64,000 nucleotides of DNA from a bacterium (lineage in GTDB: Bacteria; Patescibacteriota; Minisyncoccia; Phycocordibacterales; Phycocordibacteraceae): the NCBI GenBank assembly GCA_023269085.1, contig JAHFML010000001.1:108578-172577 (forward strand). Reading direction: 5' to 3'. The notes under the pieces are model-generated. The model made no database searches and was not told where the DNA came from. It saw nothing but the letters and a program-made list of their open reading frames with translations. The position numbers and the translations under genes were made by a program. Below, in pieces: positions 6,041 through 64,000 of this stretch (within the stretch, counting starts at the first letter, position 1; the number at the start of each line of letters is the position of its first letter).

Positions 6041-6074
6041 GTACCATTTTGCTCCTATAGGTTAGAATTGGTAC
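6041..6074. promoter_or_regulatory. 34-bp inverted-repeat element GTACCAttttGCTCCTATAGGttagaaTTGGTAC, ending directly at the ATG of the PaaX-like gene
   Basis: Seen in sequence. It shares the GCTCCTATAGG core and GTACCA/TGGTAC ends with the palindrome at 6684-6721. Confidence 0.5.
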
Positions 6075-12546: not shown

Positions 12547-12683
12547 TATGTGGCTACTCTACCCGATTCCCTCTCATAACGCAAGCAAACCTGTACAAAA
12601 GAGAGACCTTGTGGCATCCTTACGCTGGATGTACGAATCCCTCATACCGAGGGTCTTGAAATCGTCATGTTAGGAGAAAAACC

Positions 12684-14379: not shown

Positions 14380-14631
14380 CTACTTCTTCGCCGAGGCGCG
14401 CTGCTTGAACTTCTCGACGCGGCCGGCCTTGTCGAGCGTGCGCTCTTCGCCCGTGTAAAAGGGATGCGACTGCGAGCTGATCTCGACCGTCAGCTTCGCA
14501 TACTCCTTACCGTCATCCCACTTTGCGGTCTCGCTCGTGCGGACCGTCGAGCCAATCAGGAAGCGTGCGCCCGAGGCGATATCTTCGAAAATAACCTGCT
14601 TATAACTCTCTGGGTGAATGCCTTGTTTCAT
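14380..14631 (-). CDS. rpmE: 50S ribosomal protein L31 (type B, no Zn-binding Cys)
   Basis: MKQGIHPESYKQVIFED…HPFYTG matches L31. No CxxC motifs. Confidence 0.9.
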   Translation of the reverse strand: MKQGIHPESYKQVIFEDIASGARFLIGSTVRTSETAKWDDGKEYAKLTVEISSQSHPFYTGEERTLDKAGRVEKFKQRASAKK

Positions 14632-14652
14632 TCCGTCTATCCTAGCACACCC

Positions 14653-23966: not shown

Positions 23967-26900
23967 TTATGTCGCCGGCGTGGCCGTCGCATCGACGGGA
24001 GTTGGCGCTACGGGAGAGGACGGCGGCGCGATGACCGTCACTACGCGCGATGCCGAGCCGACATTCCCCGCCGCGTCCGTCGCCGAGTAGGTCAGCGTGG
24101 TGAGGCCGATGGCCGCGGTATCGACCGCGCCAGTCTCGACGATCTTCGCGGTGAGATTGCCGTCAACATTATCGAGCGCCGTCGCGCCAGGGTCGGTGAA
24201 GGTATCACCTTGCGTCAGCTGTATCGCCGCCGCGCCGTTCAAGATGACGACCGGCGATGTCGTGTCGCCCTGCGGTGAGCCGGTCGAACCCGTCGAGGCC
24301 GGCGTCGATGATGCGGTGCCACTCGTCGCTGATACGCCGCTCGCTCCGCTCGCGGCGCCCCCTTGCGGCGTGCTCGACGCGACTGGCGCTATAACCACGG
24401 GCGCGGGCGCGCTCGCCGAGGTGCCGAGCGTGTTCGGCGTCGAGGTCGCCAATTGCCCCTCTGTCTGCACCAAGAAGTAATCGAAGGAGACATCAATCGT
24501 CTGCGGTGCCGAGAGCACGACGCGGAAGGATCCTGCCGTCTTATCAGCGACCCACCAGCTCCCGCTAATTTGTGAATTGAAGGTGACGAAGACTTTGGTC
24601 GACGGGAGAACGAGCGAGTTCTGCACCTGAGCGACGGTGTTGCCGGTGATGATGCTCACGCTCCCGGCGCTACTCGTACCGTCGGCGTCCTTCGAGGCGA
24701 CGATCTGACGGAAGACGAGCGTGTTGAACTGCGCGATGCCCTTCTCTATCAAGACGCCGAAGCCCTGCAAAGCACTCGCGAGCGAGGTCGTCCCGAGGGC
24801 GAGCGGCGACGCGCTCGCGACACTGACCGCTCCGCTCTCGAGCTTCGCGACGCGCGCCTCAAGCGAGGTGAGTCGCGTCCCTTGGGCATCAATTTTCCCT
24901 GCGAGCAACGAGACATTCGCCACCGCATAGGTCGCGAGCTTGTAGAGATCAACTTGCCGACCGTCGGCGGTCAAGACGGCGAGCGGTGTCGAGGTCGCGC
25001 CAGCAGGCACGTCGAGCTTCGCGTCGAGCTGTTGGATAGCCTTGGTCAACACCGACGTGAAGTTCGCATAGACGAAGCCGTTCGGATTCCCCTGCTCATC
25101 GCGCGTCACGAGCCTTGAATCCACGAGCGCCGCCTGCTCGGCGATGAAGCCAAGCTGAGTCGTCGCGCCATTGTCGCCATAGCCCTTGATGAAGGTGAAG
25201 GAGACCGGCTTCAAGGCGAGCACCTCATCGAGACCAGAGACCGAGGAGAGCGGCACGATGTTGGTCTTGAACTTCTCCGACGAGAGCGTACAGGTCGTCC
25301 CCGCCTCAATCTCATGCGTCACCGTGTTCCAGCAGAGGTAGTCGCCGGTGGTCGAGACCGTCGGCGAATCGATCGCCATGCTCCCTGCGACCGAGAGCTT
25401 ACGCCACGGGCTGGTGGTGCCGATGCCGATATTCCCCGTACTCACCGTCGCACCTGTCCCGCTCAACCCTGTCCCATATATCATGTTCCCGATATTGAGT
25501 TGGTTGCTTGCGGTCGCGCTCGGCACAGCGACGTCATTGCCGATGCTGATGTTGTTCGAGCCGGTCGTTACCTGATTCTGCGAGGCGGCGATAACGCTGT
25601 TGCCGAGGAAGGTGTTGCGGGCACCTGAGGTGATGCTGTAGCCCGATAGGTAGCCAACAAGGGTGTTGTAGTTGGAGTTGGTCTGGGCGGAGTAGCCCGC
25701 TTGGTAGCCGAGGTAGGTGCCGCCTTGGTTGGAGTAGGCGGCGGTGCCGCCGCCGGCGTTATAACCGACAGCGACCGAGGAGGAGGCGGAAGTATTGTAG
25801 CGAAGAGCAAATGAGCCGACAGCCGTGTTGAATGAGCCGGTGATGTTGGTGTTGAGCACCGAACGGCCGAGAGCTGTGTTGGAGTTGCCTGTTGTCAACA
25901 CCGGCAAAGTGAAAGCACCAAGTACTGTGTTGCTGTTGCCGGTTCTGTTAACATTCAAAGCATTCACGCCAACCGCTGTGTTTGTTGATGCTGTTCCGTT
26001 CGTCGGTGTCGTACCGAGCGCCCCCTGCCCGATTGCAATGTCGTAGAAGAGCGTCGAGGTTGCGCGCATCCAACCGGCGGCGCCGGTAGTGCCGAGGGCG
26101 AGTGAGAAGTTCGTCGTCGAAGCGTAGAGGACAGTATTCCCTGCTTGTTTGAAGCCTGAGTATTGGTCGGTGTTCACATAGCCGGCGACGTCGAGCTTGT
26201 AGGCAGGGGCGGTGAGGCCGATGCCGATATTCCCCGTACTCACCGTCGCACCTGTCCCGCTCAACCCTGTCCCATATATCATGTTCCCGATATTGAGTTG
26301 GTTGCTTGCGGTCGCGCTCGGAACAGCGACGTCATTGCCGATGCTGATGTTGTTCGAGCCGGTCGTTACCTGATTCTGCGAGGCGGCGATAGTGCTGTTG
26401 CCGAGGAAGGTGTTGCGGGCACCTGAGGTGATGCTAAAGCCCGATTGGTAGCCAACAAGGGTGTTGTAGTTGCTGCCGGTGGCAAGAACATAGCCGGATT
26501 GGAAGCCGACATAGGTGCCGCCCGTGTTGGAGTAGGCGGCGGTGCCTTGACCTGCCTGATGACCGATGGCGACTGAGGAGGTGGCGGAAGTATTGTAGCG
26601 AAGAGCAAAGTAACCGAATGCGGAGTTGTTGTTGCCAGTAATGTTCGAGTAGAGAGCGTTGTTACCATACGCAGAGTTACTGTTCCCTGTCGTGTTAAAG
26701 CGGAGTGTGTTGAATCCAAAAGCGCTATTCGTATTTCCAGTCGTATTGAGTGCGAGTGCTCCATATCCGAAAGCGTTATTTATCTTCCCGCTCGTGTTTG
26801 CACCCAAAGCACTGAACCCCACAGCGACATTGAACTGAGAGAGACCATTCGTCGGCACTGTCTGCAAAGCCCCCTGTCCAATCGCCACGTCGTAGAAGAG

Positions 26901-29900
26901 GGTTGAGGTCGCCCGCATCCAGTTAGCGGCAGAGGAGGCGCCAATGGCAAGAGATGAGTTCGTCGTCGATGCATACAAGACCGTGTTGCCTGCTTGCTTG
27001 AAGCCACTGTATTGGTCGGTGTTCACGTAGCCCGCGACGTCGAGCTTCTGGGTTGGCGAAGTTCCCACTCCCACATTCCCATTCGCCAAGATGTTGAGTG
27101 ACCCGATGGTGGAGGAAGCAGAGGCGATGATGCCGTTGGTGAAGCCGATGGTAGTGGAGGTGGAGACGCCCCACGCAGTCGGAGTGAAGGGCCAGGCGAA
27201 GGAGTCTTTGGTATTGAACGTATTCCAGTCCGTACTCGAGAGCCAGCCGTTCGTGCTGGTGTTCGCTTGGGTCATGGCGACGGTGTTGGCAGAGATGGTG
27301 AGCGGGAGGGTGGCAGAGACGATACGCGAGGTGTAGGCGGTGTTGAAGTGCGACCAATCTGCTTGGGCGAGGTAGCCGTCGGTGGTGCCGTTTGATTGGG
27401 CGATGGTGAGCGGTGAGCCGCTAGTGCCGTTGCCGGTCAAGGGTGCGGAGACGGCGACCGCAGTGAGAGCATTGGCGGCGACGCAGACACCGTTGATCGC
27501 ATAGCAACCCTTCTTCAAGTTGATGCCGTAGCCGAAGGTGGAAGTGGCGACATTTGAGATGTTGATGGTGTTAGCACCCGTGTTGCCGAGGGAGAGGAGT
27601 GAGCCCGGGGTGGTGGTGCCGATGCCGAGAAGACCAGTTGAAACGAGCGACATAAGTTCTGAATATCCGCCAGCGTTATAGTCATACCCCCAGAGCATTC
27701 TGGCGGTACCAGGGTTCCCTGATACCGGGAGCACTTCATTCTTGAAGTTTACCGTGCGCGAGGCCGCCGCGCCGGTATCCCACACCGTGCCGCTCAGGCG
27801 GAGACGAGGCGACATTTGTACCGTAGCTCCGGCTGTTGCCGCGGTGGTATTCGTCAGGATGATTCCATCTGTCGAGACTGCCGCAAGTGCTGTCCGTGTA
27901 TTGGTAAGTGTATTAGTCATCGCAAGACTAGAAATACTAGAAAGTGCCCCTCCGGATGTCAAAGTGAAGCGAGTAGTATATGCACCCCCGTTCACTCCAG
28001 AAGCAAAAATGAGATTGGATGTTGGATTTGCAGATCCTTGTACCGGAAGTGCATACATCTGCCAGTCGGTCCTTTGGCTCGCAACTGGGGTTGTCGCCCA
28101 TCCTTGTCCAGTGAATCGAAGAGAAGGGCTTATCTGTTGCGCTCCTGCTGAAGCCGCCGTCATGTTTTCAATAGCAAGACCAGAAGAGTTCGTTTGTATA
28201 ACTCCTAGAGCATTGGCGGCGACGGTAAGAAGCGAAGATGGCATCGGCGTTCCAACACCGACATAGCCATTCTTGTCGACCACAAAGCTCGTCTTGGTCG
28301 AAGAGCCGATGGCGAAAGAAAGCCGGCCGGCGGGTGCGTTCACCGAGAGCGTCGCCCAGGGGGTGGTGGTGCCGATGCCAAGGCGATCGTCTGCGGTCAA
28401 GACTGAGGAGAGCGCGCCTGAGGTGTTGTAGATGTCGATGATATGCGCCGTCTGGCTCGCCGAAGGGACGAGCGCGAGCGTCGTGGTCGCGACCGAGCCC
28501 GAGATCACCGCGAACTTCGCATAGAGCGTCGAGGTCGCGCCGACCGCGACGAGATAGGTCGAGGTAGCGAGCGAGACAGTGTGCTTGGTCGCATCGCTTG
28601 CCCAGCCACCGCCGACCGATGCGCCCGAGGTGTTGATCAGGCCGCAGGAGACATTCCCCGAGCCGTCGGTCTGGAGCGCCTGCGTGCCGGTACAAGAGGT
28701 GATGCTAGAGAGCGCGAGCGAGTTGGTGAATCGCGCCGTGCCTGCGACGTCGAGCTTATAGGCTGGCGCGGCCGTGCCGATACCGACATTGCCGGCGATA
28801 TACGAGATGTCCGCGCCTGAGGTCGCCCACGGCGATGAGACTTTGCTGTTGAAGATATTCCAATCGGTCGATGAGAGATATCCGTTCGCCGTGCTCGAGG
28901 CCTGCGCGAGCGAGAGCACATTGCCGGCGAAGGAGAGCGGGGCCGTCGCTAAGGTGATGCGTGAGGCATAGGCGGTGTCCCAGTTCGCACTATTGGCGTT
29001 CCAACCGGCGTAAGCAGAATTCCAATTGGTAGAATTGGCGGCGACGGTATCGTAGGAGCCATTCCAGTTCGTCGTTGAGGCGATGAGCGGAATTATGTAG
29101 CCGCTCGCGATCGAGAAGGCGCCCGTGCCTGAGTTGTAGGAGAGCGGGCCAGAGGTAGAGAGCGCCGCGCGCGCACGAGCGTCGGTGTAGTAGAGGTTCG
29201 CGCCTTCCGCGAGATTGGTCGTCGACTTGTTCGTGAGCCAATAATTGGTCGAGGTTGTCGAGAAGAAGAAGTCCTTGTTGAAGAGGCCGAGTGTAGTCGT
29301 CGAGAGGCGACTATTAAAATCGTTCCAATCGATACTGGAGAGGAAGCCGTTCGACGAGTTCCCTGCCTGCGCGATCGAGAAGGCGCCCGCGCCTGAGTTG
29401 TAGGCGAGCGGGCCAGAGGTAGAGAGCGCCGCGCGCGCACGAGCGTCGGTGTAGTAGAGGTTCGTGTTCCCCTCCTTAAGCCCATCGGTCGTCGTGGCAT
29501 ACCAATTCGCGAGAGAGAGCTTCGCGTTGAGCGCACTCTGGAGATCGGTCTGATTCGCGAGGACCCCGGTGATGTTCCCCCAGACGGCGCTCGTGATGCC
29601 GAGCGACGAGGTGGCGACCGCAACGAGTTTGCCGTTCGCGTTCGTGCCGAGAAGCGGCGCATTCGCGAGGCCAGAAAGCCACGTCGACCCCGAGACGGTG
29701 AGCGCCGTTGTTGATGCATAGGGGAAGACAGAAGCGAGCGACGAAGTGGCAACGAAGTGTCCGGAGGTTATCTGGCCGGCATTGCTAAATGAAGAGAGAT
29801 AGCTGGCGATGTCGGTCGAGCCGATGAAGAGATTGTCGAACTTGCCGGTTGTCGCCGAGACGAGACCGCCGCCGGTGAGGCTCCCCCCGCGGAAGTCGCC

Positions 29901-31637
29901 GTTCCGCACGATGAGATTTGAGAGGTCTTGAATCATGTTGACCTGCTGTATCGTCGTCATATTGGTCACCGTCTGCGCCGCGACTGGCTGCATCATGCCC
30001 GCAACCGTCGCGAGCACGTCGGTGCGGAGCGAGGCGAGCGACTGCGTCAAGAGATCCGGCGACACGCCCTTTACGATCGTCGTGTAGGTCGGATACGAAT
30101 TGACTACTCGCGCTGATACCGGCGCAGGTGCTAGAGCGAGAATAGTTGGCCGTGGGGTTATGATCGGCGCCGCGGTTTTCGATGTTGTCGTCGCAGAATA
30201 TATCGGGCGATCCGGCGCTATGACCAAGACCGTCGGTGAATGCACAAAAAACGTTGCAAGTGCTCCGCGTGTCGAATCAAAGAAATCGCGAATCGTCGTA
30301 TAGGTGCCGAGTGCGGCGCGCTCGCCAAGCGTGAGCGCCGGCACTGAGGTAATTACCGCCGCAAGACGCGATGCCGAGGGGAACGATTCGAGAACAAGCG
30401 CGGTCTTGCCGAGCAGGCCGAGAGCGGCGTCCTGCACGACAGAGGGGGAACGCGCTATGAGCACCGGTACCGCAACAGCCGCGCGACCGACTGCCGCAGA
30501 AGTCGCGTATGCCGCTCTGCCCGTTTGATCGACCGACGCGAGATACCCCCGCGTTATGGCATCGGTCGCTCTGACGAAATGCATCGCGCCAGAATATTCA
30601 ACATCGAAAACCGCCTCCGCGAGAGAGGGGGCTCCCCTGACGCCGCTCGACACCGTATCCGCGAGAGCATACATGACGCGGACATCGGTTCGTATCGCAG
30701 ATTGAGAAAGCGCGGCGATTGCGCGCGCGACGCCACGACCAGACGCAAATGCGAGATGCGGTACCTGCGCGAGCGCGTCTCGCGTGTCTGCGCCGATTGC
30801 GAGCGCCGTGCCGCCCATAGCATCAATCACCGATTGCCGCGTCGGCAGTGAGCTCGTCATTGCAGCGGCGATCTCTGACGGCGTGGTGACAAACGCGATT
30901 GTGCGAATGAGGCTCGCTCGTATTGCCGCAAACGAGATCGTCGATCGTGCCACAGGCGTCGCCGCGAATGTCTTATGGACCTCTGGTGACTCGGCGCTAT
31001 ATTCTCGAACGAGCGAGGTCTGCATCGACGCGAGCACATTTCCTGCCGAGAGCGCTCGGTACGCCGATGCCTCCGGAGAGGCTGCCATGACGCGAGACGA
31101 GATCTCGCGCATCGCACCGCGTGACGTATCGACGCGCGTCGCGATGCGCGAAGGCACGTCGCCGAAGGTCTCGGTGAAGCCGAGTGCTGTCTCTTGCGCC
31201 AGCGCCGCAACTTGATTGGTAAAACTGGACAACGCCTCTGCGCGCGCGCCGAGAGCGCCCAACGCGACGACGAGCAGAGCTGTGACAAGAGAGACCGTGC
31301 GCGTACCACGCACCGGCGTCCCGATGGCCAAGCGATATGGCGACACCACCATCTGCATCGTCAAGATTGACTCATCGCGCGGCTCTGTATTCTTCTGCAG
31401 CTTACGATATTCATTCGCACGAACATCAGCGAGCTCGCGTGCACGAAGAACCTTCCGATTTTTTTGTTTTTGTAAAAAGGATTCGAGCGCTACCCGATCT
31501 ACCATCCACTGATGCCCGATCTTTTTCCCTTCTATCTCTCCTGCTCGCACGAGTCGCGCGAGATAGTCTTGTGTGTATCCCGACAGCTCTCCAGCCTCTT
31601 TCGTTGTTATGAATTTTTCGTTAGGTGAGGAGTGCAT
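23967..31637 (-). CDS. giant (2,556-aa) membrane-anchored surface protein. N-terminal excisionase-type HTH, single TM, tandem repeats, tail-fibre-like Gly/Asn β-helix repeats, peptidase-S74-like intramolecular chaperone motif, C-terminal Ig-like domain
   Basis: One uninterrupted 7.7-kb ORF. N-term ITTKEAGELSGYTQDYLARLVRAGEIEGKKIGHQWMVDRVALESFL (HTH_17-like) and TM TVSLVTALLVVALGALGA. Repeats of NAFGYGALALNTTGNTNSAFG type. SSEKFKTNIVPLSS…LKPVSFTF (S74-like). C-terminal ~90 aa Ig-like (VVILNGAAAIQLTQGDTFTDPGATALD). Confidence 0.85.
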   Translation of the reverse strand: MHSSPNEKFITTKEAGELSGYTQDYLARLVRAGEIEGKKIGHQWMVDRVALESFLQKQKNRKVLRARELADVRANEYRKLQKNTEPRDESILTMQMVVSPYRLAIGTPVRGTRTVSLVTALLVVALGALGARAEALSSFTNQVAALAQETALGFTETFGDVPSRIATRVDTSRGAMREISSRVMAASPEASAYRALSAGNVLASMQTSLVREYSAESPEVHKTFAATPVARSTISFAAIRASLIRTIAFVTTPSEIAAAMTSSLPTRQSVIDAMGGTALAIGADTRDALAQVPHLAFASGRGVARAIAALSQSAIRTDVRVMYALADTVSSGVRGAPSLAEAVFDVEYSGAMHFVRATDAITRGYLASVDQTGRAAYATSAAVGRAAVAVPVLIARSPSVVQDAALGLLGKTALVLESFPSASRLAAVITSVPALTLGERAALGTYTTIRDFFDSTRGALATFFVHSPTVLVIAPDRPIYSATTTSKTAAPIITPRPTILALAPAPVSARVVNSYPTYTTIVKGVSPDLLTQSLASLRTDVLATVAGMMQPVAAQTVTNMTTIQQVNMIQDLSNLIVRNGDFRGGSLTGGGLVSATTGKFDNLFIGSTDIASYLSSFSNAGQITSGHFVATSSLASVFPYASTTALTVSGSTWLSGLANAPLLGTNANGKLVAVATSSLGITSAVWGNITGVLANQTDLQSALNAKLSLANWYATTTDGLKEGNTNLYYTDARARAALSTSGPLAYNSGAGAFSIAQAGNSSNGFLSSIDWNDFNSRLSTTTLGLFNKDFFFSTTSTNYWLTNKSTTNLAEGANLYYTDARARAALSTSGPLSYNSGTGAFSIASGYIIPLIASTTNWNGSYDTVAANSTNWNSAYAGWNANSANWDTAYASRITLATAPLSFAGNVLSLAQASSTANGYLSSTDWNIFNSKVSSPWATSGADISYIAGNVGIGTAAPAYKLDVAGTARFTNSLALSSITSCTGTQALQTDGSGNVSCGLINTSGASVGGGWASDATKHTVSLATSTYLVAVGATSTLYAKFAVISGSVATTTLALVPSASQTAHIIDIYNTSGALSSVLTADDRLGIGTTTPWATLSVNAPAGRLSFAIGSSTKTSFVVDKNGYVGVGTPMPSSLLTVAANALGVIQTNSSGLAIENMTAASAGAQQISPSLRFTGQGWATTPVASQRTDWQMYALPVQGSANPTSNLIFASGVNGGAYTTRFTLTSGGALSSISSLAMTNTLTNTRTALAAVSTDGIILTNTTAATAGATVQMSPRLRLSGTVWDTGAAASRTVNFKNEVLPVSGNPGTARMLWGYDYNAGGYSELMSLVSTGLLGIGTTTPGSLLSLGNTGANTINISNVATSTFGYGINLKKGCYAINGVCVAANALTAVAVSAPLTGNGTSGSPLTIAQSNGTTDGYLAQADWSHFNTAYTSRIVSATLPLTISANTVAMTQANTSTNGWLSSTDWNTFNTKDSFAWPFTPTAWGVSTSTTIGFTNGIIASASSTIGSLNILANGNVGVGTSPTQKLDVAGYVNTDQYSGFKQAGNTVLYASTTNSSLAIGASSAANWMRATSTLFYDVAIGQGALQTVPTNGLSQFNVAVGFSALGANTSGKINNAFGYGALALNTTGNTNSAFGFNTLRFNTTGNSNSAYGNNALYSNITGNNNSAFGYFALRYNTSATSSVAIGHQAGQGTAAYSNTGGTYVGFQSGYVLATGSNYNTLVGYQSGFSITSGARNTFLGNSTIAASQNQVTTGSNNISIGNDVAVPSATASNQLNIGNMIYGTGLSGTGATVSTGNIGIGLTAPAYKLDVAGYVNTDQYSGFKQAGNTVLYASTTNFSLALGTTGAAGWMRATSTLFYDIAIGQGALGTTPTNGTASTNTAVGVNALNVNRTGNSNTVLGAFTLPVLTTGNSNTALGRSVLNTNITGSFNTAVGSFALRYNTSASSSVAVGYNAGGGTAAYSNQGGTYLGYQAGYSAQTNSNYNTLVGYLSGYSITSGARNTFLGNSVIAASQNQVTTGSNNISIGNDVAVPSATASNQLNIGNMIYGTGLSGTGATVSTGNIGIGTTSPWRKLSVAGSMAIDSPTVSTTGDYLCWNTVTHEIEAGTTCTLSSEKFKTNIVPLSSVSGLDEVLALKPVSFTFIKGYGDNGATTQLGFIAEQAALVDSRLVTRDEQGNPNGFVYANFTSVLTKAIQQLDAKLDVPAGATSTPLAVLTADGRQVDLYKLATYAVANVSLLAGKIDAQGTRLTSLEARVAKLESGAVSVASASPLALGTTSLASALQGFGVLIEKGIAQFNTLVFRQIVASKDADGTSSAGSVSIITGNTVAQVQNSLVLPSTKVFVTFNSQISGSWWVADKTAGSFRVVLSAPQTIDVSFDYFLVQTEGQLATSTPNTLGTSASAPAPVVIAPVASSTPQGGAASGASGVSATSGTASSTPASTGSTGSPQGDTTSPVVILNGAAAIQLTQGDTFTDPGATALDNVDGNLTAKIVETGAVDTAAIGLTTLTYSATDAAGNVGSASRVVTVIAPPSSPVAPTPVDATATPAT
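25420..25672. repeat. intragenic tandem repeat copy A (~255 bp, near-identical to 26218-26470)
   Basis: Direct inspection: strings such as ctcaccgtcgcacctgtcccgctcaaccctgtcccatatatcatgttcccgatattgagttggttgcttgcggtcgcgctcgg occur in both copies. Period is about 798 bp (266 aa). Confidence 0.8.
26218..26470. repeat. intragenic tandem repeat copy B
   Basis: See copy A. Confidence 0.8.
29107..29470. repeat. two tandem ~264-bp (88-aa) repeats within the giant gene (NLYYTDARARAALSTSGPL[AS]YNSG[AT]GAFSIA)
   Basis: gcgatcgagaaggcgcccg…gagcgggccagaggtagagagcgccgcgcgcgcacgagcgtcggtgtagtagaggttcg occurs at about 29107 and about 29371. Confidence 0.7.
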
Positions 31638-33035: not shown

Positions 33036-34451
33036 TTAGCCAAGAGTAGCGATGATGAGTTCGCGGAGTAGGGTCGGATTGCCGGCACCTCGCGTAGCTT
33101 GCATGCTCTTGCCGACGAGGTATTGCAAAGCCGCGTCCTTCCCCGATCGGTACTCGATAACCGCCTTGACCTCTTCTTTAAGCACGCTCTCGACCGCAGT
33201 GCGCAAGAGCGTCGCGTCATGCACCTGGATCAACCCGTGCTCCGTGGCGATATTCTCGGGATCTCCCCCCTTCTCGACGAGCAGAGCGAGCGTGTCCTTA
33301 GCCCCGCGCGATGAGAGTTCGCCTGTGTCAATGAGCTTGATGAGCTTCGCAAAAGCCTTCGGGTCAAGAGCCGCATATTCTTCGCACCCCTGTTTGGCAT
33401 ATATACCTGCAAGATCCGATACGATATAGTTCACGGCGATTGAGACAAGACGGCGATCCATACCAAGTTCTTCCGTAAGAGCATCAAAGAATGTCGCGCG
33501 CTCGAGCGTGTCCACTACATAGGCGATATCACTCTCTTTCAAAGCAAAAGCTTCTGTGTACCGCGTTCGACGCTCCCAGGGGAGCTCGGGAAGTGATGCG
33601 CGTATCACCGCATCACTGAAATCAGCAATCTCCGACCGATACATCTTCGGGAGATCTGGTTCAGGGAAGTAGCGATAGTCGGCGCTCCCCTCCTTAAAGC
33701 GTTGGTGAAAGGTTATCTGCTTCGATTCATCCCATCCGCGCGTCTCCTGCACGACCGCCCCGCCGCTCTCAATAAGCGCTGACTGCCTTTCGATCTCGTG
33801 TGCGATAGCGCGCTCGACCGAACGAAACGAGTTCAGGTTTTTGACTTCGACTTTCGTGCCGAGCTTCCCTTCTTCCTTCGAAACCGAGATGTTCGCTTCG
33901 ATGCGCATTTCTCCCTTCTCGAGATTTGCTTCTCCTGCACGAAGGGTACGGAGAAGGAGCTGCAATTCTCGTGCGAATCTCCCTGCCGTCGCCGCATCGT
34001 GAATCACGGGTTCAGTGACCAGCTCCATGAGCGGCACGCCGGAACGATTGAAGTCGACACAACTCCCTTCTTTCGCGTGTGTCGAGCGCGCCGTGTCTTC
34101 TTCGAGATGCACGCGGGTGACCGCAACACCCGCGAGCTCTCCACCCTCTACGAAGGGATGTTCGTATTGACTGATCTGATACCCTTTAGGGATATCAGGA
34201 TAGAAATAGCTCTTGCGATCGAATTCACTGAAATCCGCGAGCTCCCCGCCGAGGGCCGTACCAACCCGCAGGATATGCCGCACTGCTTCTCGATTGATCA
34301 CAGGCAATGTCCCCGGGTGTGCGAGACATACGGGGCAGACATGCGTATTCGGTTTTACTTCGTCAGCGTCATTCGCACAGCGACAGAACATCTTAGTCGC
34401 TGTTTTGAGCTCGGCGTGTATCTCAAGTCCTATGGTCGGGCGGTACTCCAT
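33036..34451 (-). CDS. gatB: Asp-tRNA(Asn)/Glu-tRNA(Gln) amidotransferase subunit B
   Basis: MEYRPTIGLEIHAEL…CRCAND…CPVCL (GatB N-terminal Zn motif) and the C-terminal YqeY-like tail. Confidence 0.9.
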   Translation of the reverse strand: MEYRPTIGLEIHAELKTATKMFCRCANDADEVKPNTHVCPVCLAHPGTLPVINREAVRHILRVGTALGGELADFSEFDRKSYFYPDIPKGYQISQYEHPFVEGGELAGVAVTRVHLEEDTARSTHAKEGSCVDFNRSGVPLMELVTEPVIHDAATAGRFARELQLLLRTLRAGEANLEKGEMRIEANISVSKEEGKLGTKVEVKNLNSFRSVERAIAHEIERQSALIESGGAVVQETRGWDESKQITFHQRFKEGSADYRYFPEPDLPKMYRSEIADFSDAVIRASLPELPWERRTRYTEAFALKESDIAYVVDTLERATFFDALTEELGMDRRLVSIAVNYIVSDLAGIYAKQGCEEYAALDPKAFAKLIKLIDTGELSSRGAKDTLALLVEKGGDPENIATEHGLIQVHDATLLRTAVESVLKEEVKAVIEYRSGKDAALQYLVGKSMQATRGAGNPTLLRELIIATLG

Positions 34452-35485: not shown

Positions 35486-38017
35486 TTATGCGCGCCCAAT
35501 AATGCGCCACCCCTCACGAAGGAGCGGCTCGGCCTTCTTAAACTTAAGCGTCTTTGTCTCATCGCCTTGTGCGATATGCACCATCTCATTACGACCATAC
35601 TCAGCCGACCTGACGATAGGCGCCCCGCTCTGATCCTCTTTCCCAGCTGTCTCGAATAGGGCGCGCGTCTTCTCCTCCTCTTTGGTCGTTTGCTCTGATA
35701 CGGGCATGCCGGGTGTTGCCTGCAAGCGCGGCAACGCTTCGACAAGCGTCGCGACGATACTTGCTTCGAGCGCGCGGAATCGCGCGAGCCCCTCGCGTCG
35801 ATATTCGATAAGCGGATCGCGCTGGCCATAAGCGCGGAGCGACACGCTCCGGCGCAGATAGTCCATCGTCTCGAGGTGCTCGAGCCAGAACATATCGATG
35901 ACCTGCAACAGCAGATGCCGGAGGAGCGGGACGAACGCCGCGCCCGATTCGACCTTCTTCTCTTCAAGCGAAGAGAGTGCCTGATCGTTGTCTGAAAGAA
36001 GCGTTTGCACTATCTCTTCAACCCCTCTGTCGCTCCCGAGGAGCGCGGCCCTGCGGCGCGCGTAGATAGCGAGACGCTGGGTATTCATCACGTCGTCATA
36101 GGCGAGCACCTGCTTGCGTGCGTCGAAGTTGAAGCCTTCTATTCTCCCCTGTGCGGTCTCGAGCGAACGCGTAATCAGGGCGCTCTCGATCGGCTCGTCC
36201 TCGGGGATACCGAAGCGGCCCATGACATTCTTGAGCGTCTCTGCGGCAAAGACGCGCATGAGCTTGTCCTCAAGCGACACATAGAATCGCGTCTCGCCCG
36301 GGTCGCCCTGGCGCCCTGAACGTCCGCGGAGCTGATTATCAATGCGGCGCGCATCATGCCGCTCGGTCCCGATGACCGCGAGCCCGCCCGCGGCGATGAC
36401 CGCGGCACGTTCTTCGGCAGAAGCGTGCACACCGCCGAGCTTGATATCGACGCCGCGGCCGGCGAGATTCGTCGCGACCGTGACGCGCCCTGAGGCACCG
36501 GCACCGGCTATGATCTCCCCTTCACGCTCGTGATTCTTCGCATTCAAGAGCTCGTGCGGCACGCCCGCCTCGGTAAGGTAGCGGCTCACGATCTCATTGT
36601 CCTCGATCGAGACCGTGCCGATGAGGACCGGCTGACCCTTCGCTTGATGCGCCTGCACCGCGCGTGCGACGGCACGATATTTCCCTGTCGCTGTCTGGAA
36701 GATGAGATCGTCATAATCCTTCCGCGCAATTGTATTATTAGTCGGGATCACCACGACCTCGAGCTCGTACACGGTATAGAATTCTTCTTCTGATGAGAGC
36801 GCGGTACCGGTCATGCCGGCAAGGCGCGGGTACATGCGAAAAAGATTTTGGAAGGTGACGGTCGCATAGGTGCGCGTCTCCTCTCTGACCATCACGCCTT
36901 CCTTCGCTTCGATTGCTTGATGCAACCCCTCAGACCAACGGCGACCTGGCTGTAGACGACCGGTAAACTCATCAACAATGAGAATCTCGCCGTCACGAAT
37001 GATGTATTCTTTGTCGACATGGAAGAGTGCTTGCGCGCGCACCGCGGTCTCAAGATGGTACGCATACTTCATGCCACCCTCGGCATAGAGGTTGTCGAGA
37101 CCGAGCGCTACCTCGGCCTTGCGGATACCCTCTTCGGTAAGCTGAATCGCTTTTTGTTTTTCATCAATCGTATAATCAGCGCCCTCTTGGAGCGAACGGG
37201 CGAGCGCAGCGAATCGCTGATAGAGATCCTGCGAATCGCCCGCCGGCCCCGAGATGATGAGCGGCGTGCGCGCTTCGTCGATCAAGATCGAGTCGACCTC
37301 ATCGATAATCGCATAATACGGCTCGCGCTCTACGATCTGTCCGGGCGCATAGGCGGTGTTGTCGCGGAGATAATCGAAGCCGAGCTCGTTGTTGGTCACG
37401 TAGGTGACATCCGCGGCATACGCTTCGTGCTTCGTCACCGGCCGCAAATAATCATAGAAAACTTTGAAGGATCCTTCGACATCACGCACGGCATCTTCGG
37501 CAGACTCGACATGCGACGCGTCATAGCGATACGCACCCGCGCTCGTCACTACGCCGACCGTGAGACCGAGGAAGTCGTACACCTGCCCCATCCACGCGCC
37601 ATCGCGCCGCGCGAGATAGTCGTTCACCGTCACGACATGCACGCCCTTGCCGGCGAGCGCATGGAAGGTTGCGGGGAGCGTCGCGACCAACGTCTTGCCC
37701 TCGCCCGTACGCATCTCGGCGATCTTGCTATCGAGCAAGGCATAGCCACCCAAGAGCTGCACATCGAAGTGCGGTTGGCGCAGGGTGCGCCGCGCCGCCT
37801 CGCGCACGAGGGCAAAGACCGTTGCCGCATCATCTCGACTCGTCTCCCCTGCCGACACGGCCCGCGCTCGCACGAGCGCAAGCTCCTCGCGCAAAGCGGC
37901 ATCTCCGAGAGCGGCATACGCTTCCGTCCGCGCGTTCGTCGTCGCGACAAAGGGCGCCGCAGCCTTCAAGAAGGCCGAGGATTGATTCTTCGAGAATAAT
38001 CCGGAGAGATTGAACAT
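35486..38017 (-). CDS. secA: preprotein translocase subunit SecA
   Basis: 843 aa; DEAD-like motor (MRTGEGKTLVATLP, DEVDSILIDEARTPLIIS) and the C-terminal region. Confidence 0.95.
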   Translation of the reverse strand: MFNLSGLFSKNQSSAFLKAAAPFVATTNARTEAYAALGDAALREELALVRARAVSAGETSRDDAATVFALVREAARRTLRQPHFDVQLLGGYALLDSKIAEMRTGEGKTLVATLPATFHALAGKGVHVVTVNDYLARRDGAWMGQVYDFLGLTVGVVTSAGAYRYDASHVESAEDAVRDVEGSFKVFYDYLRPVTKHEAYAADVTYVTNNELGFDYLRDNTAYAPGQIVEREPYYAIIDEVDSILIDEARTPLIISGPAGDSQDLYQRFAALARSLQEGADYTIDEKQKAIQLTEEGIRKAEVALGLDNLYAEGGMKYAYHLETAVRAQALFHVDKEYIIRDGEILIVDEFTGRLQPGRRWSEGLHQAIEAKEGVMVREETRTYATVTFQNLFRMYPRLAGMTGTALSSEEEFYTVYELEVVVIPTNNTIARKDYDDLIFQTATGKYRAVARAVQAHQAKGQPVLIGTVSIEDNEIVSRYLTEAGVPHELLNAKNHEREGEIIAGAGASGRVTVATNLAGRGVDIKLGGVHASAEERAAVIAAGGLAVIGTERHDARRIDNQLRGRSGRQGDPGETRFYVSLEDKLMRVFAAETLKNVMGRFGIPEDEPIESALITRSLETAQGRIEGFNFDARKQVLAYDDVMNTQRLAIYARRRAALLGSDRGVEEIVQTLLSDNDQALSSLEEKKVESGAAFVPLLRHLLLQVIDMFWLEHLETMDYLRRSVSLRAYGQRDPLIEYRREGLARFRALEASIVATLVEALPRLQATPGMPVSEQTTKEEEKTRALFETAGKEDQSGAPIVRSAEYGRNEMVHIAQGDETKTLKFKKAEPLLREGWRIIGRA

Positions 38018-38100
38018 GAAGCCTCACTATAGCATAGAGTCGCTCTTTGGTCTAAAAAGAAAAATCCCGCACATTCATGCGGGATCTCTCTGTCTGCAAA

Positions 38101-58698: not shown

Positions 58699-58920
58699 CT
58701 ATCCTATCGCCTGATGCGGCTCCTCGCTCAACACTGCGCTCGGCGCCTCCTTCGTCGCATCTGCGACTTTTACTTCGCGCGCGCGGAGTGAGACCCCGAC
58801 ACTAACGACGATCGCGCCGAAGACGACTGCGAGCAGTGAGCGCATCGCGACCGGCAAGCCCGAATAGGGCGTGATGATAGTGAGGATTCCGACGAGGATA
58901 AGTATGCCAGTGCGGGACAT
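58699..58920 (-). CDS. hypothetical small membrane protein
   Basis: Two hydrophobic helices (ILILVGILTIITPY; LLAVVFGAIVVSVGV). Confidence 0.3.
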   Translation of the reverse strand: MSRTGILILVGILTIITPYSGLPVAMRSLLAVVFGAIVVSVGVSLRAREVKVADATKEAPSAVLSEEPHQAIG

Positions 58921-58932
58921 GCGACTAGTATA

Positions 58933-61380: not shown

Positions 61381-62726
61381 ACCACCGTGACAATCTTGTT
61401 AAACTGCTCGCCCCGATCATACTCATTTTTGAACATGCCGAAGGAGGCGAAGGCGGGCGAGAGCAAAATGATGTCGCCCTCTTCGGCGTGCGCAAAGGCG
61501 TCGGCGACGGCAGCTGCAAGCGTGTCGAATATCTCGTTAGTATCGAAGTCTGACTTCGATACTAACTGATCGGTGCCCGTACCGGCGAGGAGGATGACAC
61601 GCTTCGTCTCGGGCAAGCGCGCGATGAGCGCGCTCATGTCGAGACCCTTATCGGCCCCACCCAAAATCAAAATCAGATTGTAGGACTTACGATGTCCTAC
61701 ATTCCCGAGAGCGGAAAGCGCAGCGAGCGTTGCCTCGGGCGTTGTCGAGGTCGTGTCGTTGTAGACTTTCACCCCATTTACCTCGCGCACGAGCTCGAGC
61801 CGCCCCGGCACACCCCTGAACGATTCGATTGCCGCGCGGCTCACGCTGTCGGCAATACCGAGGGCGCGCGCGGCCGCGAGCGCAAGGGCGGCATTGTAGC
61901 GATTGTGCAAGCCCGGCATCTGTAACGTCCAGGTGTCGGGAAGCTTCAATTCGTCAGCGACAATAGTATTCGCTTCTATTCGCTCGCTGTATTTCTCTAT
62001 TATCGTCGGCGCGCACTGCTTCCCAAGCACGAGCGTGTCGCTCTTTGTTTGATTCAAAAAGATATTCGCTTTGTCGGCCAAATATGCGCCCATGTCATTT
62101 TTATAATAATTCATATGATCGGCGTAGAAGGTCGTGAAAACTGCAATGTGCGGGGAAAGTCTTGCTTCGCCGAAGCCTTGAAGCTTCCACGAGTCGAGCT
62201 CGAGCACGACAATAGTCTCGCTCGTGACGCTTGCGAGATGCGAGAGAAGCGAGGTGCCCTGCACATTGCCACCCTCGATGACATCCTTACTCGCCGCACG
62301 CAAGATCGCCACGAGCATCTCAGTCACGGTCGTCTTGCCGCGCGTGCCGGTCACGCCGACAATGGTCGCGCCCACTTCGCGCGCGAAGCCAGCGAAAAGC
62401 GCCGCCCACATCGTTATGGGCGTGCCTTCTTTTCGTGCTTCGAGTATGAACGGTGAATCAATCGGCGACCCCGGCGCCTTGATTATCAAATCGCGCCCGC
62501 GGAAGTCCGCGAGCTCGTGCCGCCCGAGCATGAAGCGCACATTCGAGAACTTTTGCAATATCTCAACCGACGCTTTCGCATCCTCTTCACTCTTCAGATC
62601 TGTTGCGATAATATCAGCGCCACTCTCTGCGAGAAATTTGATATCTCCGACACCCCCCAAGAGCCCAAGCCCCATGACGGTTATCTTCTTCCCTTTGAAT
62701 TCGGCGCCTACATCCATGCTTCGCAT
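61377..62726 (-). CDS. murD: UDP-N-acetylmuramoylalanine--D-glutamate ligase
   Basis: KKITVMGLGLLGG…, GTRGKTTVT. Confidence 0.9.
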   Translation of the reverse strand: MRSMDVGAEFKGKKITVMGLGLLGGVGDIKFLAESGADIIATDLKSEEDAKASVEILQKFSNVRFMLGRHELADFRGRDLIIKAPGSPIDSPFILEARKEGTPITMWAALFAGFAREVGATIVGVTGTRGKTTVTEMLVAILRAASKDVIEGGNVQGTSLLSHLASVTSETIVVLELDSWKLQGFGEARLSPHIAVFTTFYADHMNYYKNDMGAYLADKANIFLNQTKSDTLVLGKQCAPTIIEKYSERIEANTIVADELKLPDTWTLQMPGLHNRYNAALALAAARALGIADSVSRAAIESFRGVPGRLELVREVNGVKVYNDTTSTTPEATLAALSALGNVGHRKSYNLILILGGADKGLDMSALIARLPETKRVILLAGTGTDQLVSKSDFDTNEIFDTLAAAVADAFAHAEEGDIILLSPAFASFGMFKNEYDRGEQFNKIVTVV

Positions 62727-62750: not shown

Positions 62751-63257
62751 CTAATTCGCGCAGCTGACTGCCGCCACCTTGTCTTCGTGCGTGAGCGGGA
62801 GCGTAGTGGTCGGCACGACGACAATCTCATAGGGAGAGATAATTGCCTTTTTTGCACACGACGTATCTGGCTCTGCGACTGCGACTGCGACTGTGCGCGT
62901 ATCCGCATCGGTAATGTGGACGACCGCAATACGCGCGCTCGGACCCTTCCCAGCGAAGACCGCGAGCACGGTCTTATTGGAGAAATCGATAACAGGCGGT
63001 GTGCCCGTCGCATCAACCATCGTCCAGAGTTTCGTCAATTCATCGGGCGAGGTGATGACATAATTAACCCTATCTGCGACTTTCGACTTTTCCCCTTGTG
63101 CGAGCGTCTCGAAGGGTACCGCTACCGCGGCGAGCTGGCTAGTCGTTGGAGCTTGTGCGCCAGGCGTCTGATTCTGACTTTGACCGAGCATGACGATCAC
63201 GCCGATAGCAATCGCGATTAAGATGACACCTAAAATAATCAATATATCTCGTTTCAT
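62751..63257 (-). CDS. hypothetical membrane-anchored protein (PrcB C-terminal-like?)
   Basis: N-terminal TM ILIILGVILIAIAIGVIVML. The C-terminal β-rich region has two Cys. Confidence 0.35.
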   Translation of the reverse strand: MKRDILIILGVILIAIAIGVIVMLGQSQNQTPGAQAPTTSQLAAVAVPFETLAQGEKSKVADRVNYVITSPDELTKLWTMVDATGTPPVIDFSNKTVLAVFAGKGPSARIAVVHITDADTRTVAVAVAEPDTSCAKKAIISPYEIVVVPTTTLPLTHEDKVAAVSCAN

Positions 63258-63322
63258 ATAGACAGTATACTCCCGTTCACTATACCGCTTCGCGCAAGGT
63301 GGGTATAACTAAAGACTTTCTG

Positions 63323-63395
63323 TGCACGCTCTAGGAGTCGAACCTAGGACCGCTCGAGTATCAGTCGAGTGCTCTACCAACTGAGCTAAGCGTGC
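63323..63395 (-). tRNA. tRNA-Ile (anticodon GAU), CCA not encoded
   Basis: Minus-strand read GCACGCTTAGCTCAGTTGGTAGAGCACTCGACTGATACTCGAGCGGTCCTAGGTTCGACTCCTAGAGCGTGCA, with anticodon loop CTGATAC. Confidence 0.9.
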
Positions 63396-63617
63396 AAGCG
63401 AACTCTCGCAGTGTAGCAAATTTTGTGAAAAAGAAAAAGATGTCGTGTGCGCTCTTTTGTTCCGCCTATTCTGTACCGGTCGAGAGCTCATATGTGGCTC
63501 TCGACCACCATCGGGTTACGTTATCCGACTTCCGAGTGCTGTTTAGAGACAAGCACCATCTCTCCATTTTCCGAAGAAAATGATCGACATGATTTTCCTT
63601 TCGAGAAAATCGGTTCC

Positions 63618-64000
63618 AATTGGATATGTTCCACGAGCAGCTTCCGCTACCCGTGCCTTGTTACGACTTAGTCCTTGTCACTGAATTTACCGTAGTCCTG
63701 CGCAAGGCAGACCTTCGGGTACCCCCAGCTCCCTTGACTTGACGGGCGGTGAGTACAAGACTCGAGAACGTATTCACCCCAGTTTGGCTGACCTGGGATT
63801 ACTAGCGATTCCGGCTTCATGAGGTCGATTGCAGACCTCAATCCGTACTGGGGGTGGTTTTGAGGGATTGGCTCCACCTTACGGTATTGCAACCCGTTGT
63901 ACCACCCATTGTATTATGTGTGCAGCCCAAGGTATCAAGGGACATGCTGATCTGGCGTCATCCTCACCTTCCTCTCCCGTGAGGGAGCAGTCTCGCCTGG
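63618..64000 (-). rRNA. 16S rRNA, 3' portion (about 380 nt); the gene continues beyond the window end
   Basis: The reverse complement contains universal 16S blocks: …TTGTACTCACCGCCCGTCA… (1390s region) and AAGTCGTAACAAGG, then an h45-like hairpin CACGGGUAGC-GGAA-GCUGCUCGUG. The 3' boundary is approximate. Confidence 0.9.

What the first reader, a model, noticed from the sequence alone, without database searches (positions are those of the whole stretch)
63618..63660. 16S rRNA 3' tail appears to lack the CCUCC anti-Shine-Dalgarno, and genes here lack SD motifs
After the conserved AAGUCGUAACAAGG and an intact helix-45-like hairpin (CACGGGUAGC-GGAA-GCUGCUCGUG) the RNA continues GGAACAUAUCCAAUUGG…. 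The canonical end would be GGAUCACCUCCUU. No CCUCC occurs anywhere in the 225-nt spacer before tRNA-Ile.

Upstream regions of confidently called genes (gyrB, gap, tsf, pheT, rpe) show no GGAGG-type motif at -5 to -12. A genome-wide loss of SD/anti-SD pairing is unusual for bacteria and affects start-site calling throughout. One gene (rpmE) has GGAUA at -5, complementary to UAUCC, which may be a coincidence.
Basis: seen in the sequence. Interest (0 to 1): 0.6.

Follow-up and report, generated by a model that had tools for sequence, protein, structure and literature searches.

The report
Ribosomal RNA without Shine-Dalgarno docking site
This uncultured ultra-small (CPR/Parcubacteria, Kaiserbacteria-like) bacterium really has lost the 16S rRNA sequence that normally docks mRNAs, apparently because most of its genes are transcribed as leaderless mRNAs that begin at the start codon. 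The loss is already published for neighbouring lineages.

Summary
The window ends in the 3' part of a 16S rRNA gene on the minus strand (64000..63619). A covariance-model alignment puts GAACAUAUCCAAU where GAUCACCUCCUUA normally sits, so CCUCC has become UAUCC. Helix 45 is intact, and there is no CCUCC before tRNA-Ile.

It is not an artefact. Of 50 independent assemblies of Kaiserbacteria/Paceibacterota relatives, 38 carry exactly GAACAUAUCC, 12 carry other non-CCUCC variants, and none has CCUCC.

Upstream of 894 predicted genes (55 in the window) nothing is complementary to the real tail or to the canonical one. Instead, a sigma-70 -10 box (TAnnnT) peaks at -12..-7, with TG at -15/-14, TTG at -35..-33 and a pyrimidine at -1. 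About 40% of genes have it (19/55 in the window, p = 1e-8). This places the transcription start on the A of ATG, which means leaderless mRNAs. Another 109 gene pairs overlap by 4 nt (ATGA).

Loss of the anti-SD in a Parcubacteria subgroup is published (Tsurumaki 2022; a 2024 PLoS One survey). I did not find the leaderless explanation or the strong conservation of the replacement tail in the searched literature. The interest is moderate.

The parts
63619..64000 (-). 3' part of the 16S rRNA gene (model positions 1139-1533), cut by the window edge
   Evidence: Rfam RF00177, 309 bits, E = 1.6e-94
63632..63655 (-). Helix 45 (CACGGGUAGC-GGAA-GCUGCUCGUG), intact
   Evidence: cmscan alignment. All 10 pairs are paired in 50 of 50 relatives, and 3 pairs show compensatory changes
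63619..63631 (-). 13-nt 3' tail GAACAUAUCCAAU (equivalent to E. coli 1530-1542, GAUCACCUCCUUA)
   Evidence: cmscan alignment. GAACATATCC is exact in 38 of 50 related assemblies, and none has CCTCC
63622..63626 (-). UAUCC at the anti-Shine-Dalgarno position (1535-1539), replacing CCUCC
   Evidence: U1537 and C1538 are invariant in all 50 sequences
63591..63611 (-). Trailer hairpin GAUUUUCU-CGAAAG-GAAAAUC, starting 21 nt after helix 45. It is probably a pre-rRNA processing element
   Evidence: Covariation in 50 sequences: five of its six outer-stem pairs show changes on both sides, up to 18 per pair. None of 500 shuffles reached the observed covariation score
63583..63588 (-). GUCGAU motif, nearly invariant, after the trailer hairpin
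   Evidence: Alignment A1 columns 95-100, 90-100% identical
63454..63472 (-). Trailer segment AGAAUAGGCGGAACAAAAG, complementary to the conserved leader cuuuuguuccgccuauucu found just 5' of the 16S in relatives. This is the inferred leader-trailer helix
   Evidence: Sequence read. Leaders of 24 relatives are listed
63322..63395 (-). tRNA-Ile(GAT), followed directly by protein genes (no tRNA-Ala or 23S)
   Evidence: ARAGORN and Rfam; gene order
63264..63269 (-). TATACT -10 box, 6 nt before the ATG at 63257 (168-aa ORF). Example of a leaderless promoter
58927..58932 (-). TATACT -10 box, 6 nt before the ATG at 58920
14639..14644 (-). TAGGAT -10 box preceded by TGc, upstream of rpmE (ATG at 14631).
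38026..38031 (-). tgcTATAGT extended -10 box, 8 nt before the secA ATG at 38017
12556..12561 (-). TAGAGT -10 box, 9 nt before the rpsB ATG at 12546
6063..6068 (+). TAGAAT -10 box, 6 nt before the ATG at 6075
12672..12676 (+). AGGAG at -12..-8 of the ORF starting at 12684: a rare retained SD-like motif, unexplained

Best explanation
The window comes from a Kaiserbacteria-like member of the Parcubacteria/Paceibacterota (CPR). In this whole clade the 16S rRNA has lost the CCUCC anti-Shine-Dalgarno core; in most members it reads UAUCC.

Start-site selection in these genomes does not use SD:anti-SD pairing. Most transcription units appear to be leaderless. A sigma-70-type promoter (TTG at -35, a 17-nt spacer, an often TG-extended TAnnnT -10 box) sits so that transcription starts on, or 1-3 nt before, the A of the ATG. 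The ribosome (70S, or 30S with IF2 and fMet-tRNA) would then bind the 5'-terminal AUG directly.

Genes inside operons are mostly reached in two ways: by 4-nt stop/start overlaps (ATGA, termination-reinitiation), or from their own promoters embedded in the 3' end of the upstream gene. With no SD to pair with, selection on C1535 and C1536 was relaxed and the core changed.

The rest of the tail (G1530, A1531, U1537, C1538) stays conserved, presumably for ribosome structure or 3'-end maturation.

Shown here: the tail sequence, its lineage-wide distribution, the absence of complementary upstream motifs, and the promoter geometry.
Inferred: the actual transcription start sites, the mature 16S 3' end, the initiation pathway, and the order of events.
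For: Tail and clade:
- The tail is aligned by a covariance model, and no CCTCC lies downstream.
- The taxon comes from MurD homologue names and genome titles.
- 50 independent assemblies have non-CCUCC tails, 38 of them exactly GAACATATCC.

Promoter signal:
- TANNNT start positions upstream of 894 genes peak at -12 (167), -13 (75), -14 (52) and -15 (47), against about 12 per position in the background.
- 358 of 894 genes have a box starting at -16..-11, against 64-83 in equal-sized control windows.
- In the window alone it is 19 of 55 against a 7.7% control rate, p = 1.4e-8.
- In the 167 exact cases, G is 70% at -14, T is 43% at -15, TTG sits at -35..-33, position -1 is a pyrimidine in 87%, and the top hexamers are TATACT and TAGAGT.
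- The box is present in 58-63% of genes with a same-strand gap of at least 10 nt, but in only 12% of overlapping genes. 109 gene pairs have 4-nt overlaps.

Absence of SD pairing:
- GGATA and GGATAT are not enriched.
- Duplex energies of -20..-1 with the actual or the canonical tail are no better than shuffled sequence.
- The E. coli positive control gave SD 5-mers in 12 of 38 genes and boxes in 2 of 38; the window gave 2 of 55 and 19 of 55.

Start-site support: Pfam domains begin within a few residues of the chosen starts.
Against: - There are no transcript data. Transcription starts and the mature 16S 3' end are inferred.
- My gene and start calls are home-made, and the start rule favours ATG.
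- About 26% of genes have neither a box nor an overlap. Some clearly have SD-less 5' UTRs: gyrB has TATACT at -34, giving a UTR of about 22 nt.
- AGGAG is still enriched at -13..-9 in a minority: 29 observed against 2.3 expected among 207 no-box genes, and about 6% of all genes carry an SD-like 5-mer. This includes one orthologous family of about 280 aa in genomes that have the UAUCC tail. A total absence of SD function does not predict this.
- Only one rRNA copy is visible, so a second canonical 16S elsewhere cannot be formally excluded.
- The near-invariance of the replacement tail shows it is not simply decaying.
- 94 genes next to canonical-tail relatives showed no clear SD either, so the order of events (leaderless first, then loss) is untested.
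Confidence: 0.8

Rival explanations
1. Compensated (orthogonal) pair: the tail UAUCC/AUAUCC is a new anti-SD, and genes carry a matching GGAUA(U) ribosome-binding site.
For: rpmE has GGAUA at -11..-7. The tail is strongly conserved across the clade. In the window alone, 20% of upstream regions reach a duplex energy of -6 kcal/mol or lower with the tail, against 9-13% in controls; this is not significant.
Against: GGATA and GGATAT show no positional enrichment in 894 upstream regions. Mean duplex energy with the real tail is weaker upstream of starts (-3.37) than in shuffled (-3.80) or distal (-4.04) sequence. The rpmE GGAUA lies inside TGcTAGGAT, and TAGGAT recurs 8 times among the 167 exact -12 boxes. 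Leaderless mRNAs would not contain the region at all.
Confidence: 0.03
2. Artefact: a mis-assembled, chimeric or pseudogenised 16S 3' end, or a mature 3' end that lies elsewhere and carries CCUCC.
For: The window and a second assembly of the same organism (L126) both end inside the 16S. MAG rRNA regions are often mis-assembled.
Against: The same tail, spacer architecture and 16S-tRNAIle-murD synteny occur in about 48 independent assemblies from different studies. Helix 45 and the decoding-site sequences are intact. No CCUCC occurs anywhere up to the tRNA. A covarying trailer hairpin and a leader-trailer complement indicate a normally processed gene. Related published genomes have other non-canonical tails.
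Confidence: 0.02
3. Bacteroidetes- or Mollicutes-like SD-independent initiation on leadered mRNAs is the main mode: unstructured, A/U-rich 5' UTRs, bS1 and Kozak-like context. Under this reading the TAnnnT signal is an mRNA element rather than a promoter.
For: Some genes clearly have SD-less 5' UTRs (gyrB). About a quarter of genes have neither a box nor an overlap. Known anti-SD-less bacteria such as Flavobacteriia work this way (PMC6107228, PMC10783764).
Against: The TAnnnT signal comes with TG at -15/-14, TTG at -35..-33 at 17-nt spacing, and a Y(-1)/A(+1) start context. These are RNA polymerase features, not ribosome features. Its position is fixed so that the 7th nucleotide after the box is the A of ATG.
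Confidence: 0.12

Closest known systems
Anti-SD-less subgroup of Parcubacteria (Tsurumaki et al. 2022, RNA 28:1041, PMC9297842; Campbellbacteria and Wolfebacteria listed as 'SD-scarce, no CCUCC' in PLoS One 2024, PMC10783764)
   Same: Same superphylum and neighbouring lineages. The 16S 3' end lacks CCUCC(U) and SD use is very low (1.9% for Campbellbacteria in the 2024 survey).
   Different: The published tails differ: GAATATTTCAAAATG, GATTAATTAAATATT and GATCACTACATTT. The Kaiserbacteria-type GAACAUAUCC tail was not found in the supplementary text that is held. Those papers give no mechanism: they do not mention leaderless promoters and call the link to uL1 loss unclear.
Flavobacteriia (Chryseobacterium, Riemerella, Elizabethkingia), some Mollicutes, and insect endosymbionts (Carsonella, Hodgkinia) lacking the anti-SD (Lim 2012, PMC3457768; Amin 2018, PMC6107228)
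   Same: The CCUCC core is lost across a lineage, with no compensating SD upstream of genes.
   Different: From general knowledge, those organisms mostly use leadered, A-rich, unstructured 5' UTRs. Here a promoter abuts the start codon.
Leaderless-rich bacteria (Actinobacteria such as Mycobacterium tuberculosis, Deinococcus-Thermus; the 'TA-like signal about 10 bp upstream of starts' of Zheng et al. 2011, cited from memory)
   Same: A -10 box sits at a fixed short distance from the ATG, so transcription starts on the start codon.
   Different: Those lineages keep a canonical anti-SD and use SD on their leadered genes. Here the anti-SD is gone.
Nanoarchaeia and other archaea, and mitochondria, which have leaderless mRNAs and no functional anti-SD
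   Same: The same logic applies: once mRNAs are leaderless, the anti-SD is dispensable and changes (argued for Nanoarchaeia in PMC10783764).
   Different: Different domain or organelle, and different promoter and initiation-factor machinery.

Membership tests
Bacterial lineages whose 16S rRNA lacks the anti-SD | Helix 45 is recognisable and the 3' tail can be placed by a structure-based alignment | tested here: met
   Infernal/Rfam alignment through model position 1533. Helix 45 is 100% paired in 50 sequences
Bacterial lineages whose 16S rRNA lacks the anti-SD | No CCUCC in the 13-nt tail or further downstream in the precursor | tested here: met
   The tail is GAACAUAUCCAAU. No CCTCC occurs between 61594 and 64000 on either strand
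Bacterial lineages whose 16S rRNA lacks the anti-SD | The variant is shared by related genomes, so it is not a sequencing error | tested here: met
   50 of 50 related tails are non-canonical and 38 of 50 are identical
Bacterial lineages whose 16S rRNA lacks the anti-SD | No SD motif (canonical or complementary to the tail) is enriched upstream of genes | tested here: met
   Caveat: a residual AGGAG signal in about 6% of genes
Bacterial lineages whose 16S rRNA lacks the anti-SD | All 16S copies of the genome lack it | not testable with these tools
   Only one partial copy is in the window, and no complete genome of this organism is available here
Leaderless-mRNA-dominated gene expression | A -10 promoter hexamer at a fixed distance, so that the transcription start falls on or next to the start codon | tested here: met
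   The TANNNT peak at -12 is 14-fold over background. Window: 19 of 55, p = 1.4e-8.
Leaderless-mRNA-dominated gene expression | Accompanying RNA polymerase signals (extended -10 TG, -35 TTG at about 17 nt, a Y-1/R+1 start) | tested here: met
   Position frequencies of the 167 aligned promoters
Leaderless-mRNA-dominated gene expression | Strong preference for AUG as the start codon | tested here: inconclusive
   166 of 167 are ATG, but my start rule prefers ATG
Leaderless-mRNA-dominated gene expression | Experimentally mapped 5' ends at the start codon | not testable with these tools
   No transcriptome data are available
Compensated/orthogonal SD:anti-SD pair | An upstream motif complementary to the altered tail, enriched at -5..-15 | tested here: not met
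Bacteroidetes-type SD-independent initiation with an occluded anti-SD | The CCUCC core is retained in the 16S but unused | tested here: not met
   The core is UAUCC

The most novel reading that the evidence does not exclude
The replacement tail is not a decayed anti-SD but a functional element under purifying selection. GAACAUAUCC is identical in 38 of 50 genomes whose MurD proteins are only 53-72% identical to the window's, while the neighbouring spacer covaries freely.

Under this reading, either the mature 16S of this clade keeps a structured 3' extension (the UCC-loop-GGA mini-hairpin plus the CGAAAG hairpin), or the tail has taken on a new role in 70S/leaderless initiation or in 3'-end maturation. 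This would make the clade a natural, essentially SD-free bacterial translation system.
Probability: 0.12. Interest if true: 0.7.

Novelty: new member of a known kind. Interest (0 to 1): 0.4.

Why it matters
Practical consequences:
- Gene finders that reward SD motifs will mis-call starts in these genomes. For example, the deposited MurD homologue starts 9 nt downstream of the promoter-proximal ATG.
- A -10 box 6-9 nt upstream of an ATG is the useful start signal in this clade.

Biological consequences:
- A whole, widespread clade of ultra-small bacteria appears to run translation initiation almost without SD pairing.
- They combine leaderless mRNAs, stop/start overlaps and promoters inside genes. 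This parallels archaea and mitochondria.
- The leaderless architecture offers a simple reason for the anti-SD loss that was previously reported without a mechanism.
- These ribosomes could also serve as a natural SD-independent bacterial translation system.

Tried and rejected
- my first genome contigs pattern was mis-specified (the final GG was one base out of register) and returned 0 hits. This is not a biological result.
- looking up the source contig gave no DNA (the sample file was too large) or a second assembly that also ends inside the 16S. I could not obtain the full 16S or more of this genome.
- I tested for a 'downstream box'. The first 21 nt of putative leaderless mRNAs pair with the tail no better than codon-shuffled controls (p = 0.87).
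- I tested the idea that CAU in the tail pairs with the 5' AUG. Relatives whose tails lack CAU (GAAUGAUUCA, GAACAAUUCA, GAAUAAUUCC) show the same promoter signal (34 of 69 genes), so the idea is not supported.
- I used 45 metagenome contigs with the same unusual helix 45 but a canonical CCUCC tail as a natural control. Only 94 genes from heterogeneous, more AT-rich lineages could be called. They showed neither a clear SD peak nor a clear -12 box peak, so the control is inconclusive.
- the UCC-loop-GGA mini-hairpin right after the tail is 91% paired but shows no covariation, so it remains unproven.
- literature searches linking 'leaderless' to CPR, Patescibacteria or Parcubacteria found nothing relevant.

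Full report
**1. What is at the coordinates**

The finding lies on the minus strand. Rfam's bacterial SSU model matches window 64000..63619 (309 bits, model positions 1139-1533, truncated only by the window edge).

After the universal AAGUCGUAACAAGG comes a 10-bp helix 45 with a GGAA loop (63655..63632). The model then aligns GAACAUAUCCAAU (63631..63619) to GAUcACCUCCUUu. In E. coli numbering the anti-SD core C1535-C1539 (CCUCC) reads UAUCC.

A search for CCTCC finds nothing on either strand beyond position 61593. So there is none in the tail or in the 223-nt spacer up to tRNA-Ile(GAT) at 63395..63322.

**2. Whose genome, and is the tail real?**

The neighbouring murD product has its best homologues in MAGs labelled Patescibacteria, Candidatus Paceibacterota or Candidatus Kaiserbacteria. 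An identical protein occurs in a second metagenome assembly.

A scan of GTDB species representatives with MurD returned 80 loci from Kaiserbacteria, Paceibacterota and Adlerbacteria MAGs, 53-72% identical.

The order 16S - tRNA-Ile - small ORF - murD is conserved, so about 48 of these loci contain the 16S 3' end. In an alignment of 50 distinct sequences:
- 38 have exactly GAACATATCC.
- 4 have GATCATATCC.
- The remainder have GAACATTTCC, GAACACATCC, GAATAATTCC, GAATGATTCA, GAACAATTCA or GATTCATTCA.
- None has CCTCC.

The loss is therefore a trait of the lineage, not an assembly error or a pseudogene.

**3. No Shine-Dalgarno, old or new**

I called genes with a codon-usage model in the window (55 usable genes) and in the 80 loci (839 genes).

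The results were:
- Motifs complementary to the real tail (GGATA, GGATAT) show no positional enrichment.
- Predicted duplex energies between -20..-1 and the real tail or the canonical tail are no better than for shuffled or distal sequence.
- In E. coli, the same pipeline found SD-like 5-mers in 12 of 38 genes. In the window it found 2 of 55.

**4. What is there instead**

The start positions of TAnnnT hexamers upstream of the 894 starts show a sharp peak. The counts are 167 at -12, 75 at -13, 52 at -14 and 47 at -15, against about 12 per position elsewhere.
- 358 of 894 genes have such a box starting at -16..-11, against 64-83 in control windows of equal size.
- In the window alone it is 19 of 55 against a 7.7% control rate (p = 1.4e-8). 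In E. coli it is 2 of 38.

Aligning the 167 exact cases shows the rest of a sigma-70 promoter:
- G at -14 (70%) and T at -15 (43%), which is an extended -10.
- TTG at -35..-33, which gives a 17-nt spacer.
- A pyrimidine at -1 (87%).
- TATACT and TAGAGT as the commonest hexamers.

Six nucleotides separate the box from the ATG. The canonical start point, the 7th nucleotide after the box, is therefore the A of the ATG. These are promoters of leaderless mRNAs, or mRNAs with 1-3-nt leaders.

Window examples:
- TATACT-gtctat-ATG (start at 63257)
- TATACT-agtcgc-ATG (58920)
- TAGAAT-tggtac-ATG (6075)
- tgcTATAGT-gaggcttc-ATG (secA, 38017)
- tgcTAGGAT-agacgga-ATG (rpmE, 14631)

It is part of a -10 box, not a ribosome-binding site.

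**5. Genes without their own promoter**

The frequency of the box depends on the upstream context:

| Upstream context | Genes with the box |
|---|---|
| Same strand, gap of at least 10 nt | 58-63% |
| Divergent upstream neighbour | 42% |
| Overlapping the upstream gene | 12% |

- 109 same-strand pairs overlap by exactly 4 nt (ATGA). This is the classic arrangement for termination-reinitiation (after correcting the printed gaps by +3).
- Many promoters lie inside the 3' end of the preceding gene.
- Divergent genes can be as little as 17 nt apart, with face-to-face promoters (17753/17771).
- A minority of genes have SD-less 5' UTRs. gyrB has TATACT at -34.

**6. A loose end**

Among 207 genes with no box and a long or divergent upstream region, AGGAG is enriched at -13..-9 (29 observed against 2.3 expected).

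About 6% of all genes carry an SD-like 5-mer, including in genomes where the UAUCC tail is seen. Ten or so of these cases come from one orthologous family of about 280 aa (a weak Cu-oxidase_4/PgeF-like hit), and others come from a MaoC-like gene. The window has one case, at 12672-12676.

I cannot explain what a GGAG motif does in a cell whose 16S offers only UCC to pair with. This tempers the claim that SD function is completely absent.

**7. The tail is conserved, and the trailer is structured**

G1530, A1531, U1537 and C1538 are invariant, and the whole decamer is identical in 38 of 50 genomes. In contrast, the next hairpin (63611..63591, CGAAAG loop) evolves by compensatory changes. Up to 18 double changes occur per pair, and none of 500 shuffles reached the observed covariation.

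A nearly invariant GUCGAU follows (63588..63583). Further on, the trailer contains AGAAUAGGCGGAACAAAAG (63472..63454). This is complementary to the conserved leader just 5' of the 16S in relatives, so it is presumably the leader-trailer processing helix.

The replacement tail is therefore under constraint, plausibly for ribosome structure or for 3' maturation.

Two specific ideas about a new mRNA-pairing role failed:
- There is no downstream-box complementarity.
- Relatives whose tails lack CAU are just as rich in promoter-abutted starts.

**8. Comparison with what is known**

- Loss of the anti-SD is rare but documented. Lim 2012 listed 15 organisms and Amin 2018 listed 128, concentrated in Flavobacteriia, Mycoplasma and insect endosymbionts, and none had a compensating SD (PMC3457768; PMC6107228).
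- For CPR specifically, Tsurumaki et al. 2022 found the CCTCCT motif in only 48% of Parcubacteria. It was missing in a subgroup that overlaps the lineages lacking uL1, and they offered no functional explanation (PMC9297842).
- A 2024 survey lists Campbellbacteria, Wolfebacteria, SR1 and Peribacter as 'SD-scarce, no CCUCC'. Their tails differ from the one here (PMC10783764).

The headline observation is therefore already known for neighbouring lineages. This genome adds a Kaiserbacteria-type member with its own tail.

In the searchable literature I found no description of the promoter-at-the-ATG (leaderless) architecture for these bacteria, and none of the strong conservation of the replacement tail. 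The architecture itself is the one known from Actinobacteria, Deinococcus, many archaea and mitochondria.

**9. Verdict**

- Mechanism: SD-independent, predominantly leaderless initiation plus translational coupling. My confidence is about 0.8 and it awaits transcript mapping.
- Novelty: a new member of a known kind.
- Interest: moderate, 0.4.

Noticed in passing
window 62751-64000 (and L002-L080): The rRNA genes are unlinked. 16S and tRNA-Ile(GAT) are followed directly by a 168-aa ORF, murD and murC, with no tRNA-Ala or 23S in the 63 kb downstream. The 16S-tRNAIle-ORF-murD order is conserved in about 48 related MAGs.
   Followed up: partly
window 63454-63611 (minus strand): The 16S trailer is highly structured. 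It has a covarying hairpin with a CGAAAG loop, a nearly invariant GUCGAU, further UUCG/GCAA-type hairpins, and a 19-nt segment complementary to the conserved 16S leader of relatives (the inferred leader-trailer helix).
   Followed up: partly
window 34067-34158 (-): ARAGORN calls a 92-nt tRNA-Arg(GCG) inside the gatB coding sequence (33036-34451; Pfam GatB_N and GatB_Yqey). Rfam does not report it at the gathering threshold, so it is probably a false positive.
   Followed up: no
window 17753/17771, 40726/40770, 8673/8712: Divergent gene pairs have start codons only 17, 43 and 38 nt apart. Each gene has its own -10 box, so face-to-face promoters overlap and partly lie within the neighbour's first codons.
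   Followed up: partly
window 12672-12676; L004:5703-6527, L009:4547-5383, L027:6682-7515 and others: A canonical-looking AGGAG/AAGGAGG motif persists at about -12 upstream of a few genes in genomes whose 16S lacks CCUCC. Examples are an orthologous family of about 280 aa (weak Cu-oxidase_4/PgeF-like hit), a MaoC-like gene, and the window ORF at 12684. Its function is unexplained.
   Followed up: partly
L081-L125 (metagenome contigs): 45 contigs share the unusual helix 45 (GGCAYGG...TCRTGG) but keep GGAUCACCUCCUUUCU. Many have GGAG 4-7 nt after the CCUCC, which could form a CUCC-loop-GGAG hairpin that masks the anti-SD in the precursor. This parallels the UCC-loop-GGA arrangement in the window's clade.
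   Followed up: partly
L003, L023, L041, L071, L080: The 16S genes of some relatives are 2290-3153 nt long instead of about 1455-1463 nt. They carry large insertions, as is known for CPR rRNA genes.
   Followed up: no
window 23967-31637 (-): A 2556-aa ORF, by far the largest gene in the window, was not annotated here.
   Followed up: no
window 62717 vs 62726 (murD start): The deposited homologue (P0001, 446 aa) starts at the second ATG (62717). The first ATG (62726) lies closer to a -10-like ATAGAT. This may be an example of start mis-calling in an SD-less genome.
   Followed up: no
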